Part shown: in pieces, positions 17,133-17,946 of the stretch
Position numbering within the stretch: position 1 is the stretch's first letter
Layout: each line of letters opens with the position of its first letter
IMG/VR virus record: IMGVR_UViG_2548876862_000001
Location: 1 to 19,156 of that record
Reading direction: 5' to 3' (one strand)
From: a virus
Taxonomy: Duplodnaviria; Heunggongvirae; Uroviricota; Caudoviricetes
Length of the DNA stretch: 19,156 bases
Position numbers and translations under genes: made by a program
The notes under the pieces: generated by a model
Seen by the model: the letters and a program-made list of their open reading frames with translations, nothing else
Told to the model about the DNA's origin: nothing
Database searches by the model: none

Positions 17133-17151
17133 TTGGTGCGCCGGACGGCGC

Positions 17152-17182
17152 AAAAAGAAAACCGCCAGTGTGCTGCTGGCGG
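17152..17182 (-). terminator. Rho-independent terminator on the minus strand
   Basis: CCGCCAG (17162-17168) pairs with CTGGCGG (17176-17182) around a 7-nt loop, followed at once on the minus strand by UUUUCUUUUU (plus 17152-17161). Confidence 0.5.
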
Positions 17183-17227
17183 CCTATGTCACACCCTTAC
17201 TACCACATAAGGAATGCCTAATGACTT
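17152..17227 (-). ncRNA. Candidate sar-like antisense RNA 2, complementary to the RBS and start of the second antirepressor gene
   Basis: Minus-strand GTGACA (plus 17256-17261), 17-bp spacer, extended -10 TGCTACATT (plus 17233-17241), facing the terminator at 17152-17182. Predicted length about 75 nt, covering the SD at 17209-17213 and ATG 17221. Confidence 0.35.
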
Positions 17228-17946
17228 TGAAGAATGTAGCAAACATCGGATCCGTTGTCACGGATAAAACCATTGACAGCCAAAGTCTTCTGATGATGGT
17301 TAATGAAGCTCGCAAGTTATGTGGAGAGCCATCAGTACGTAACAACAAATTCATCGAGAAAATTGAGGATGAATTGGAGGGCGAGACCTACACAAAAAGT
17401 GTAGGTCGGAAAAACGGGGCTGACATTGATGTTATCTCCATGACTATCAAGCAGGCGCTTCGTGTTGCTGCTCGCGAATCTAAAGCAGTTCGCCGAACAC
17501 TTGTAGACAAACTTGAAAGTATGCAGGAAGCACACATTAAAAGCGGTAAATCAGCGAGTGGACTTGTTGAGTATCGTCAAGCGCGAACATTGAAAATGAC
17601 GGTTGAAGCTGTTACCAATCTGTTCGATCTGATGCCAAATCTTGCGCCTGAGGCAAAGCAGACAGCGGCAGCAAGTATAATCAACCCGCTCGTTGGTTTT
17701 AATGCAATACCTCTTCCGGCAATAGAAGAGCATTACTACTCAGCAGGGGAGGTTGCAGAGCAGCTTGGAGTAACGGCCAACAAGATTGGTCGTATTGCTA
17801 ACGCAAACAACCTCAAAACTGAGCAGTACGGGAAGTTCTTCCTAGATAAATCGGCGCATTCCAGCAAACAGGTAGAGGCGTTCCGTTACAATTCTGAAGG
17901 CGTTAAAGCACTACAACACCTGCTACATGGCTCAAATGTGGCGTAA
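17221..17946 (+). CDS. Second antirepressor-like protein (Rha/ORF6N-like N-terminal region, KilAC/ANT-like C-terminal region, both by eye)
   Basis: ATG 17221 follows AAGGA (17209-17213) by 7 nt; 241 aa. C-terminal YYSAGEVAEQLGVTANKIGRIANANNLKTEQYGKFF resembles antirepressor C-terminal HTH-like domains. The track start GTG 17170 lies inside the upstream hairpin. Confidence 0.6.
   Translation: MTLKNVANIGSVVTDKTIDSQSLLMMVNEARKLCGEPSVRNNKFIEKIEDELEGETYTKSVGRKNGADIDVISMTIKQALRVAARESKAVRRTLVDKLESMQEAHIKSGKSASGLVEYRQARTLKMTVEAVTNLFDLMPNLAPEAKQTAAASIINPLVGFNAIPLPAIEEHYYSAGEVAEQLGVTANKIGRIANANNLKTEQYGKFFLDKSAHSSKQVEAFRYNSEGVKALQHLLHGSNVA

What the first reader, a model, noticed from the sequence alone, without database searches (positions are those of the whole stretch)
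17137..17241. Second candidate antisense RNA with a canonical terminator, mirroring the first
The same embedded motif (plus-strand (A/T)TGTAGCAAA, giving minus-strand TGCTACATT) occurs at codons 4-7 of the second antirepressor gene, preceded by GTGACA at 17-bp spacing. Upstream of the gene a 7-bp GC-rich hairpin is followed directly by UUUUCUUUUU on the minus strand. A second nearby hairpin (17137-17152) has no U-tract on either strand. Having the same promoter-terminator arrangement at both antirepressor genes makes coincidence less likely and suggests each gene has its own antisense regulator.
Basis: partly seen in the sequence, partly recalled or inferred. Interest (0 to 1): 0.65.

Follow-up and report, generated by a model that had tools for sequence, protein, structure and literature searches.

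The report
Second sar-like antisense RNA gene
A roughly 73-base RNA gene is very probably hidden on the opposite strand at the start of a phage's second anti-repressor gene; it works like the classic P22 "sar" RNA, but it belongs to an unannotated family that is attached to several kinds of anti-repressor gene.

Summary
On the minus strand there is GTGACA (17261-17256), a 17-nt spacer, then TGcTACATT (17241-17233). A conserved A follows at 17226, then the complement of the ant2 start codon and Shine-Dalgarno sequence. Last comes an intrinsic terminator: stem 17182-17176/17168-17162 and U-tract 17161-17152.

The window alone cannot distinguish this from chance. Comparison can. All 26 non-redundant ant2 homologues (58-100% aa identity, many Enterobacterales genera) keep the -35, the 17-nt spacing, TGnTAnAnT and the +1 A. 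The amino acids encoded there change, and the spacer is unconserved. The synonymous positions needed by the promoter are invariant (P about 1e-5). The terminator helix covaries (5 of 9 pairs compensatory, 99% paired).

The layout copies P22 sar. However, Rfam's sar model does not match it, and my model of it does not match sar.

The same cassette (terminator, leader, and a 14-codon N-terminal peptide holding the promoter) also precedes ORF6N, Rha and KilA-N anti-repressor genes.

Best explanation: a cis-antisense sRNA that blocks ant2 translation. No transcript data were available. It is a new member of a known kind, of moderate interest.

The parts
17256..17261 (-). -35 hexamer GTGACA of the antisense promoter (5/6 match to TTGACA). 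It lies in ant2 codons 12-14.
   Evidence: Invariant in 26/26 non-redundant homologues, including the third positions of codons 12 and 13, although codon 12 encodes 6 different amino acids.
17233..17241 (-). Extended -10, TGcTACATT (TG 17241-17240; hexamer 17238-17233). It lies in ant2 codons 5-7, 17 nt from the -35.
   Evidence: Across the homologues only positions -13, -10 and -8 vary; TG, T-12, A-11, A-9 and T-7 are invariant while the residues vary N/T, L/V, A/T/S.
17226..17226 (-). Predicted transcription start (A), 7 nt after the -10. It is the complement of the third position of ant2 codon 2.
   Evidence: That third position is T in 26/26 homologues although codon 2 encodes T, L or S. 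P22 sar also starts 7 nt after its -10. Inferred, not mapped.
17153..17226 (-). Predicted antisense sRNA ('sar2'), about 71-75 nt. It is complementary to ant2 codon 2, the start codon (17221-17223), the Shine-Dalgarno AAGGAA (17209-17214) and the whole 5' leader.
   Evidence: Covariance model R1 hit at 17153-17226 (-), 72.6 bits. The fold has a 5' domain plus a terminator. Predicted RNAs in the homologues are 64-77 nt.
17159..17185 (-). Terminator hairpin: core CCGCCAG (17182-17176), loop CAGCACA, CTGGCGG (17168-17162).
   Evidence: RNAalifold and pair counts on 24 sequences give 9 pairs, 5 of them with compensatory changes, 99.1% of cells paired, and 0/500 shuffles reaching the covariation score.
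17152..17161 (-). U-tract UUUUCUUUUU of the terminator (an A-tract on the plus strand).
   Evidence: A T-rich tail follows the hairpin on the minus strand in all 24 lineages; on the plus strand the hairpin is followed by a variable leader that is not T-rich.
17137..17152 (.). Second inverted repeat (hairpin 1), immediately 3' of the U-tract on the minus strand. Probably not a conserved structure.
   Evidence: Present in the window. Close relatives carry gcacaggacggcgc or gcgccggactgcgc, which break pairs without compensation. P22 has GCGCCAAUGCGC at the analogous place, and published P22 small-RNA reads run through it (PMC13397905).
17221..17946 (+). ant2, the target gene (241 aa). Its first 14 codons hold the antisense promoter.
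   Evidence: PHROG phrog_1726 'anti-repressor', E = 4e-101. No Pfam family reaches its cut-off. 1940 homologues at E <= 1e-5. JEP4 annotates the same start.
16506..17132 (+). ant1, the upstream anti-repressor gene (Bro-N + P22_AR_C), in the same operon.
16433..16520 (-). First antisense unit ('sar1'): TGCTACAAT at 16520-16512, +1 G at 16505, a P22-sar-like two-hairpin RNA ending about 16433-16440.
   Evidence: z = -5.07; same fold as P22 sar; alignment with P22 sar; conserved in about 50 contexts.
16181..16209 (+). Candidate operon promoter (TTGACT-17-AATAAT), upstream of the arc-like gene and convergent with both antisense promoters.
   Evidence: 10/12 match. A consensus match only.
17965..17986 (.). 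Bidirectional terminator that closes the ant operon and the convergent Arc/Mnt-like gene.

Best explanation
The interval encodes a small cis-antisense RNA of about 73 nt, minus strand, about 17226 to 17153. I call it sar2.

A sigma-70 promoter of the extended -10 type drives it. The promoter is written into codons 5-14 of the second anti-repressor gene and fires against the direction of the ant operon. Transcription starts at the complement of codon 2. It runs across the start codon, the Shine-Dalgarno sequence and the whole 5' leader of ant2. It stops at an intrinsic terminator 39 nt upstream of the ATG.

The RNA is perfectly complementary to the ant2 translation-initiation region. It should therefore pair with the polycistronic ant mRNA, block 30S binding and create a duplex open to RNase III. 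This would hold down Ant2 synthesis independently of Ant1, which has its own sar-type RNA. Head-on transcription may add some transcriptional interference.

Shown by comparison: the promoter and the terminator are under purifying and compensatory selection as nucleotide and RNA elements on the minus strand.

Inferred: that the RNA is made, that it represses translation, and its role in the lysis-lysogeny decision. These rest on analogy with P22 sar.
For: 1. Anatomy matches the annotated P22 Psar/sar unit. P22 has GTGTTA-17-TGcTATACT inside the first ant codons, +1 at 7 nt after the -10, a 70-nt RNA, and a terminator in the upstream intercistronic region.

2. 94 loci reduce to 26 non-redundant ant2 homologues (below 93% nt identity in the first 180 nt of the gene; 58-100% aa identity). 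They come from Escherichia, Salmonella, Klebsiella, Serratia, Pantoea, Erwinia, Proteus, Xenorhabdus, Citrobacter, Kluyvera and Buttiauxella. All keep GTGACA-17-TGnTAnAnT with the start codon 9 nt after the -10, and a minus-strand terminator 27-40 nt beyond the start codon.

3. Third codon positions:
- Those of codons 5, 6, 7, 12 and 13 are invariant although the residues vary.
- Only 8 of 59 third positions are invariant, giving hypergeometric P = 1.1e-5.
- Leu at codon 6 is TTA in 15/15 homologues, against 9% elsewhere in the same genes.
- Ala at codon 7 is GCA in 22/22, against 19% elsewhere.
- Val at codon 13 is GTC in 26/26, against 27% elsewhere.
- The 17-nt spacer has no column conserved at 80% or more.
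- The only variable bases in the 9-mer are -13, -10 and -8, which I recall as the low-information positions of sigma-70 promoters.

4. Terminator: 9 pairs, 5 with compensatory changes, 99.1% paired; 0/500 shuffles reach the covariation score, and slid controls give 16-55% paired.

5. A helix between nt 2-5 and the 14 nt before the terminator is found in 16/24 RNAs, against 5.0 +/- 1.9 in shuffled leaders. MFE folds of the homologues show a 5' domain, often with UCCU (anti-SD) in an apical loop. This is the architecture of sar.

6. The unit moves as a block. In phiKp_30 and several IMG/VR contigs, homology begins at the A-tract/terminator in unrelated upstream contexts.

7. The same terminator, leader and 14-codon promoter peptide precede ORF6N (17/17), Rha (19/19) and KilA-N (2/2) anti-repressor genes. 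They are absent from unrelated genes that share only the terminator.
Against: - No transcript, 5'-end or expression data were available.
- The -10 hexamer is only 4/6 to consensus.
- Promoter-like matches in the region are not enriched over shuffles.
- V13 and T14 are invariant residues, so part of the -35 conservation is also explained by the protein.
- The homologues are phylogenetically related, so shuffle-based P values overstate independence.
- In the window's own lineage the anti-SD lies in a stem, and the MFE z-score is only -1.86.
- Rfam's sar model does not recognise the RNA.
Confidence: 0.78

Rival explanations
1. The promoter and terminator are real, but the RNA product is incidental. 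The unit would work mainly by head-on transcriptional interference with the ant operon promoter, or by collision with or occlusion of RNA polymerase entering ant2. Base pairing would not matter.
For: The promoter faces the candidate operon promoter at 16181-16209. The leader sequence is poorly conserved between lineages, as expected if only the act of transcription mattered.
Against: A tight terminator placed just past the ribosome-binding site, a conserved RNA length of 64-77 nt, a recurrent 5' closing helix and loop-exposed anti-SD motifs all point to a structured RNA product. From my own knowledge of the literature (Wu et al. 1987), P22 sar acts when supplied in trans.
Confidence: 0.1
2. 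The conserved bases in codons 5-14 are a protein-binding operator or an mRNA/translation signal. The hairpin would be a plus-strand mRNA element (a processing or stability site between ant1 and ant2), and no antisense RNA would be made.
For: GTCAC occurs in the leader (17188-17192) and again in codons 13-14. The plus-strand mRNA can form the mirror-image helices (fourth fold). A-rich 5' coding regions are common.
Against: The conservation pattern is two blocks exactly 17 nt apart, with an unconserved spacer and variation only at -13, -10 and -8. That is the signature of a sigma-70 extended -10 promoter, not of a palindromic operator. The T-run follows the hairpin only on the minus strand in all lineages. 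On the plus strand the hairpin is preceded by an A-run and followed by a variable sequence. In L006 and L012 one helix position is a G-U pair on the minus strand, which would be an A·C mismatch on the plus strand.
Confidence: 0.05
3. Chance co-occurrence of a weak promoter-like match and a hairpin, with no function.
For: Within the window alone, promoter-like sites are no more frequent than in shuffles. The shared 9-mer occurs twice in 17/200 shuffles.
Against: All elements are conserved in 26 divergent lineages, with covariation and invariant synonymous sites. The same elements were recovered independently in other gene families.
Confidence: 0.02
4. The RNA is made, but its main role is in trans. 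A prophage would use it as an immunity factor against ant2 mRNA from superinfecting relatives, or to regulate host or other phage mRNAs, rather than to auto-regulate its own ant2.
For: Leader sequences differ strongly between lineages, as would suit allele-specific immunity like P1/P7 c4. The terminator plus U-tail is the usual Hfq-binding module of trans-acting sRNAs (my own knowledge).
Against: Nothing here separates cis from trans use; a cis-encoded RNA would act on both. No candidate trans target was searched for.
Confidence: 0.05

Closest known systems
P22 sar RNA (Rfam RF00262; Liao et al. 1987 and Wu et al. 1987, Genes Dev 1:197 and 1:204, cited in PMC2629481)
   Same: - A cis-antisense RNA of about 70 nt against the ribosome-binding region of an anti-repressor gene in an immI-type operon.
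- The promoter lies inside the first codons of the target gene, with a TGn extended -10 and a 17-nt spacer.
- +1 is 7 nt after the -10.
- An intrinsic terminator lies in the upstream intercistronic region.
- The fold is a 5' stem-loop plus a terminator.
   Different: - RF00262 scores 97.8 bits on P22 but finds nothing in the window even at E <= 10.
- My model of sar2 does not find P22 sar or sar1.
- sar2 covers the start codon and codon 2, whereas P22 sar stops just short of the ATG.
- It has a strong U-tract, whereas P22's is weak.
- Its target is a different protein family (phrog_1726, not P22 Ant).
- It is the second such unit in one operon.
The window's own first unit, 'sar1' (16433-16520, minus strand)
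   Same: Same operon, strand, promoter motif (TGCTACAAT against TGCTACATT) and layout. The two share UGACAUAG(A)GGCC before the terminator.
   Different: sar1 is recognisably similar to P22 sar in sequence (TTGCTAYANTATTCATGT..., ACUGAC). It has a long 14-bp-type terminator with a weak U-tail, and its -35 is poor (TGGAAG). The two are not mutually detectable with R1.
P1/P7 c4 antisense RNA controlling icd-ant
   Same: A small RNA that blocks anti-repressor translation and gives allele-specific immunity (PMC12197685). A 62-nt stretch of ant2 is 80.6% identical to the P1 ant1/ant2 gene.
   Different: From my own knowledge, c4 is processed from the same transcript as its target, upstream of it, and pairs through short loop sequences. 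It is not a convergent cis-antisense transcript with its own promoter inside the gene. No match to any c4 family appeared in the Rfam scans.
Lambda/P22 OOP RNA and P22 sas RNA
   Same: Short phage cis-antisense RNAs with their own promoter and an intrinsic terminator.
   Different: OOP overlaps the 3' end of cII/c1, and sas lies within sieB. Neither covers the 5' leader and RBS of an anti-repressor, and neither promoter is embedded in a portable N-terminal peptide.

Membership tests
sar RNA (Rfam RF00262) | Matches the family covariance model at or above the gathering score (43 bits). | tested here: not met
   No RF00262 hit in the window at gathering threshold, nor at E <= 10 in 16100-18100. 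As a positive control, P22 scores 97.8 bits.
sar RNA (functional definition) | Transcribed antisense to the ribosome-binding region of an anti-repressor gene of an immI-type operon. | tested here: met
   The predicted RNA 17226-17153 (-) is complementary to the ant2 SD (17209-17214) and ATG (17221-17223). ant2 is phrog_1726 'anti-repressor'. The operon context is an arc-like gene followed by ant1 and ant2.
sar RNA (functional definition) | The promoter is inside the first codons of the target gene, with TGn extended -10, a 17-nt spacer, and +1 about 7 nt downstream. | tested here: met
   Conservation was tested in 26 lineages.
sar RNA (functional definition) | An RNA of about 68-70 nt ending at an intrinsic terminator in the upstream intercistronic region. 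| tested here: met
   Predicted length is 71-75 nt in the window and 64-77 nt in the homologues. The terminator covaries.
sar RNA (functional definition) | Two-hairpin architecture with the anti-SD exposed in the 5' stem-loop. | tested here: inconclusive
   The closing helix is present in 16/24 RNAs, against 5.0 +/- 1.9 in shuffles. The anti-SD is in an apical loop in many homologues but in a stem in the window's lineage. The leaders are too divergent for a reliable covariation test.
sar RNA (functional definition) | The transcript is detected and represses anti-repressor translation. | not testable with these tools
   No expression data are held. RefSeq annotation of E. coli genomes shows no RNA feature here.
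P1/P7 c4 RNA | Processed from the ant operon transcript upstream of the target; acts through short complementary loops. | tested here: not met
   The unit has its own convergent promoter and is fully complementary to its target. No c4 family match was found.

The most novel reading that the evidence does not exclude
sar2 may be one copy of a portable antisense-control cassette of about 110 bp. The cassette consists of a terminator, a leader of 27-40 nt, and a 14-codon N-terminal peptide M-x3-[NT]-[VLI]-A-x5-V-[TDI]. The sequence of that peptide is dictated by the promoter on the other strand.

Recombination has placed this cassette in front of at least four unrelated anti-repressor N-terminal domains: phrog_1726, ORF6N, Rha and KilA-N. 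Tandem anti-repressor genes in one operon would then each receive a private, allele-specific RNA brake. On this reading, an RNA promoter shapes the N-termini of a whole class of phage proteins.
Probability: 0.45. Interest if true: 0.65.

Novelty: new member of a known kind. Interest (0 to 1): 0.5.

Why it matters
P22 sar has stood for decades as a near-unique textbook case of antisense control of an anti-repressor. These results suggest the principle is widespread in prophages of Enterobacterales.

- The ant2 protein family has 1940 members at E <= 1e-5, and 94 of the 111 ant2-family loci with an assignable start carry the unit.
- Two anti-repressor genes in one operon can each have their own RNA.
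- The unit is missed by Rfam and by genome annotation.

The case is also a clean example of a non-coding element constraining synonymous codons and even the amino-acid sequence of a protein N-terminus. In practice, the covariance model could be used to annotate these RNAs. The synonymous-site test gives direct targets for mutagenesis in studies of prophage induction and cross-talk between prophages.

Tried and rejected
- **Rfam.** A scan of the whole window at gathering thresholds found nothing. An E-value scan of 16100-18100 gave only chance matches over the two units: SgrS at 13 bits and SymR at 21.8 bits, far below their thresholds.
- **Plus-strand terminator or attenuator between ant1 and ant2.** Rejected. 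No T-run follows either hairpin on the plus strand.
- **Coding potential of the minus-strand transcript.** The 56-aa ORF at 17184-17354 (-) starts upstream of the promoter. The RNA itself holds only AUG-UGG-UAG.
- **Hairpin 1 as a conserved structure.** Rejected for this lineage. Common variants break pairs without compensation.
- **Homology of sar2 with sar by covariance model.** Model R1 does not hit sar1 or P22 sar at E <= 1. Common ancestry remains possible, because the -10 block, the layout and UGACAUAGG are shared, but it is unproven.
- **General scan for 'extended -10 plus terminator' modules.** In 693 kb of fetched loci, 36 distinct modules spanned gene starts; 34 were ant2-type, one was SPN3UB gp22 (ORF6N) and one was a probable chance hit. 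The strict tail rule missed P22 sar and sar1, whose U-tails are weak.
- **Literature searches.** They found only P22 sar, c4, OOP, IsrK, STnc6030 and 24B_1. None described a second sar-type RNA or this cassette. The key sar structure paper (PMC1369469) is not held.
- **Scripting errors.** A first regular expression for the promoter in the other gene families returned zero hits because of a spacer-length error; it was corrected.
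Full report
**Context**

The window is the late region of a P22-like (Lederbergvirus) phage followed by a rearranged immI-type region. It is 97% identical to Escherichia phage JEP4 and 98.8% identical to a prophage of E. coli HS over 16160-18000.

Gene order from the 3' end of the DNA-injection genes:
- a sieA-like ORF, 14963-15457 (-)
- a cI/LexA-like repressor with HTH_3 and Peptidase_S24 domains, 15518-16159 (-)
- a candidate operon promoter, 16181-16209 (+)
- a 57-aa ORF at the position of arc, with only a sub-threshold ParD_like match, 16259-16432
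- ant1 (Bro-N + P22_AR_C), 16506-17132
- ant2 (phrog_1726 'anti-repressor'; no Pfam family above cut-off), 17221-17946
- a bidirectional terminator, 17965-17986
- a convergent Arc/Mnt-like gene, 17973-18311 (-)
- the tailspike gene, from 18364

**1. The observation**

- On the minus strand, GTGACA lies at 17261-17256.
- Seventeen nt separate the two hexamers. The last three are TGc.
- TACATT lies at 17238-17233.
- The complement of the ant2 start codon (17223-17221) lies 9 nt further on.
- The hairpin CCGCCAG-CAGCACA-CTGGCGG (17182-17162) follows, then directly UUUUCUUUUU (17161-17152).
- The second inverted repeat is at 17137-17152 and has no T-run on either strand.

One correction: the motif covers codons 5-8 of ant2 rather than 4-7.

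Within the window alone, the case is weak. Promoter-like sites are no more frequent than in shuffles (6 against 7.3 +/- 2.4). The shared 9-mer TGCTACAWT occurs twice in 17 of 200 shuffles. One fact is striking, however. TGNTANANT occurs only twice in the whole 19 kb on both strands (8.9 +/- 3.0 expected). Both copies are antisense within the first eight codons of the two anti-repressor genes.

**2. Comparison with the known case**

The P22 record annotates sar at 15021-15090 (-). Its promoter is at 15097-15125 (-) and its terminator at 15021-15058.

Read on the minus strand, P22 has GTGTTA, a 17-nt spacer ending in TGc, then TATACT. Six nt follow, then +1 G, immediately before the complement of the ant SD. 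The window's second unit has the same plan, and so does the first unit at ant1. That first unit has TGCTACAAT at 16520-16512 and +1 G at 16505. It also resembles P22 sar in sequence and in its predicted two-hairpin fold.

Rfam's sar model scores 97.8 bits on P22. It finds nothing in the window, even at E <= 10.

**3. Comparative test of the promoter**

The ant2 protein has 1940 database relatives at E <= 1e-5. I fetched 32 loci from species-representative genomes and 80 from viral contigs, plus annotated phages.

Of 111 loci with an assignable start, 94 have the ant2-type N-terminus. These reduce to 26 representatives below 93% nucleotide identity in the first 180 nt of the gene. They share 58-100% protein identity with the window, and they come from at least eleven genera.

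In all 26, the minus strand reads GTGACA, a 17-nt spacer ending in TGn, then TAnAnT. The start codon lies 9 nt downstream.

The nucleotide profile is what a sigma-70 extended -10 promoter predicts:
- Both blocks are invariant.
- None of the first 14 spacer positions is conserved at 80% or more.
- Within the 9-mer only -13, -10 and -8 vary.
- The A seven nt after the -10 is invariant.

This cannot be explained by the protein:
- Codon 5 is Asn or Thr, but always NNT.
- Codon 6 is Leu or Val, but always NTA. Leu is TTA in 15/15, against 9% of Leu codons elsewhere in the same genes.
- Codon 7 is Ala, Thr or Ser, but always NCA. Ala is GCA in 22/22, against 19% elsewhere.
- Codon 12 encodes six different residues but always ends in T.
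- Val13 is always GTC, against 27% elsewhere.
- Only 8 of 59 third positions are invariant. They include all five that the hexamers need, plus the predicted +1 (hypergeometric P = 1.1e-5).

The sequences are related, so these figures overstate independence. The replacement-tolerant, base-intolerant pattern does not depend on that.

**4. Comparative test of the terminator and the RNA**

The predicted RNAs are 64-77 nt long. In an alignment of 24 distinct sequences, RNAalifold finds one helix of 9 pairs.
- Five of the pairs show compensatory double changes (G-C to A-U, C-G to G-C/A-U/U-A).
- 99.1% of cells are paired.
- No shuffle out of 500 reaches the observed covariation score.
- Sliding the partner gives only 16-55% pairing.

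A T-rich tail follows the helix on the minus strand in every lineage. On the plus strand an A-run precedes the helix and a variable sequence follows it.

The leader between the start codon and the terminator is highly divergent. Even so, nt 2-5 of the RNA can pair with the 14 nt before the terminator in 16 of 24 sequences (5.0 +/- 1.9 in shuffled leaders). In many homologues an inner hairpin presents UCCU, the anti-SD, in its loop. This is the same architecture as sar. In the window's own lineage the anti-SD lies in a stem and the MFE z-score is modest (-1.86).

**5. The unit is a block, and it is not confined to ant2**

In Klebsiella phage phiKp_30, homology to the window starts 21 nt before the ant1 stop codon, within a wholly different upstream context. 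In several viral contigs it starts at the A-tract itself.

Salmonella phage SPN3UB has the ant1 3' end and the same hairpins, followed by a different gene. That gene is an ORF6N protein, and it again has TGCTACATT and TCGACA 17 nt apart in its early codons.

A covariance model built from the 24 sar2 sequences (R1) scores 72.6 bits at window 17153-17226 (-). It scores 40 bits on the SPN3UB site, which was not in the training set. It does not hit sar1 or P22 sar.

I then scanned viral contigs for the terminator alone (AAAACCGCCAG-N4-9-CTGGCGG) and sorted the 100 distinct downstream contexts. The test was for an antisense promoter: a 4/6-or-better TTGACA match, 17 nt, then TGnTAnnnT.

| Downstream gene | Contexts with the promoter |
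|---|---|
| ant2-type | 25/25 |
| ORF6N | 17/17 |
| Phage_pRha | 19/19 |
| KilA-N + KilAC | 2/2 |
| One further family | 1/1 |
| Other contexts with a start | 0/9 |
| No gene start | 0/23 |
| Bro-N variant | 0/4 |

Pfam places the start of each domain just after residue 15-25. The shared 14-residue peptide M-x3-[NT]-[VLI]-A-x5-V-[TDI] therefore belongs to the cassette, not to the domain. R1 scores these sites at 36-68 bits. Three contexts that share only the terminator do not reach E <= 0.01, while one context of unknown type does so marginally (36.1 bits).

The Bro-N-type gene upstream of ant2 carries a P22-sar-like unit in about 50 distinct contexts. Tandem genes each with their own antisense unit are thus the norm in this group.

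**6. Mechanism**

Shown by sequence and comparison:
- a minus-strand sigma-70-type promoter and an intrinsic terminator bracket the ant2 translation-initiation region;
- both are maintained by selection.

Inferred by analogy with sar (Liao et al. 1987 and Wu et al. 1987, cited in PMC2629481; summary in PMC12197685):
- the roughly 73-nt RNA pairs with the ant mRNA across the SD and start codon;
- it blocks initiation and exposes the duplex to RNase III;
- Ant2 output is limited whenever the operon is open.

Because ant1 has its own RNA, the two anti-repressors could be throttled separately. Convergent transcription may contribute as well.

The second inverted repeat (17137-17152) is real but is not maintained in close relatives. 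P22 has a GC hairpin at the analogous position, and published small-RNA reads for sar run through it (PMC13397905). It could mark the end of a read-through form. I leave it unexplained.

**7. Known or new**

The kind of system is known: it is P22 sar. This RNA fails the one sequence-based membership test for the sar family that could be run (RF00262). It is not annotated in RefSeq genomes. It was not described in any paper I could search. Subscription literature could not be checked.

I therefore file it as a new member of a known kind. The more novel reading, a portable cassette whose promoter dictates a shared N-terminal peptide across several anti-repressor families, is supported. It needs a systematic survey and experiments.

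**8. Verdict**

- Observation: confirmed.
- Interpretation: supported by strong comparative evidence, but not by expression data.
- Confidence that a functional antisense RNA gene lies here and represses ant2 translation: about 0.78.
- Interest: moderate (0.5).

Noticed in passing
window 16433-16520 (-): The first antisense unit (sar1) resembles P22 sar in sequence: TTGCTACAATATTCATGTT..., an ACUGAC closing helix, and a two-hairpin fold with z = -5.07. Rfam RF00262 nevertheless does not detect it. Bro-N-type genes upstream of ant2 keep such a unit in about 50 distinct contexts, with visibly covarying terminators.
   Followed up: partly
L119-L236 (viral contigs), e.g. L186 8283-8346, L130 8697-8760, L230 1516-1580, L004 2565-2628: The same terminator, leader and 14-codon promoter-bearing peptide precede ORF6N, Phage_pRha and KilA-N/KilAC anti-repressor genes (63 of 63 contexts across the ant2-type, ORF6N, Rha and KilA-N classes). 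This suggests a portable antisense cassette of about 110 bp.
   Followed up: partly
whole window, both strands: The extended -10 pattern TGNTANANT occurs only twice in 19 kb (8.9 +/- 3.0 expected). Both copies are antisense at the starts of the two anti-repressor genes. The rest of the window is depleted of the motif.
   Followed up: no
window 17137-17152: Hairpin 1 sits right after the U-tract on the minus strand. It is broken without compensation in close relatives. P22 has GCGCCAAUGCGC at the analogous place, and published small-RNA reads for sar extend through it (PMC13397905). Function unknown.
   Followed up: partly
window 15518-16159 (-) and 17973-18311 (-): The immI region is rearranged relative to P22. 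A cI/LexA-like repressor with a Peptidase_S24 domain sits divergent from the ant operon, where P22 has mnt. This hints at SOS-cleavable control of the anti-repressors. An Arc/Mnt-like gene lies convergent, downstream of ant2.
   Followed up: no
window 16259-16432 (+): A 57-aa ORF (phrog_10182; ParD_like match below the Pfam cut-off) occupies the position of arc. The epsilon34 genome paper (PMC2629481) stated that the HS-1 prophage 'ant moron' apparently lacks arc. This small protein may be its functional counterpart.
   Followed up: no
L164, L186, L123 proteins: Anti-repressor proteins are domain mosaics. Rha or Bro-N N-terminal domains are fused to a C-terminal half that is clearly the same as that of ant2 (...LPEYR...KQVEAFRYN...HGADVA).
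   Followed up: no
window 17269-17330: 62 nt of ant2 are 80.6% identical to the ant1/ant2 gene of phage P1, whose anti-repressor is controlled by a different antisense RNA (c4).
   Followed up: no
L002 (Klebsiella phage phiKp_30) 2995-3020: The ant2 cassette lies in an unrelated context but keeps the last 21 nt of an ant1-type gene. This is a recombination scar showing that the cassette came from a tandem ant1-ant2 arrangement.
   Followed up: partly
E. coli HS chromosome NC_009800.1 326807-329879: In strain HS the same region is interrupted by an IS3-family transposase, so HS is not an ideal strain for testing the RNA.
   Followed up: no
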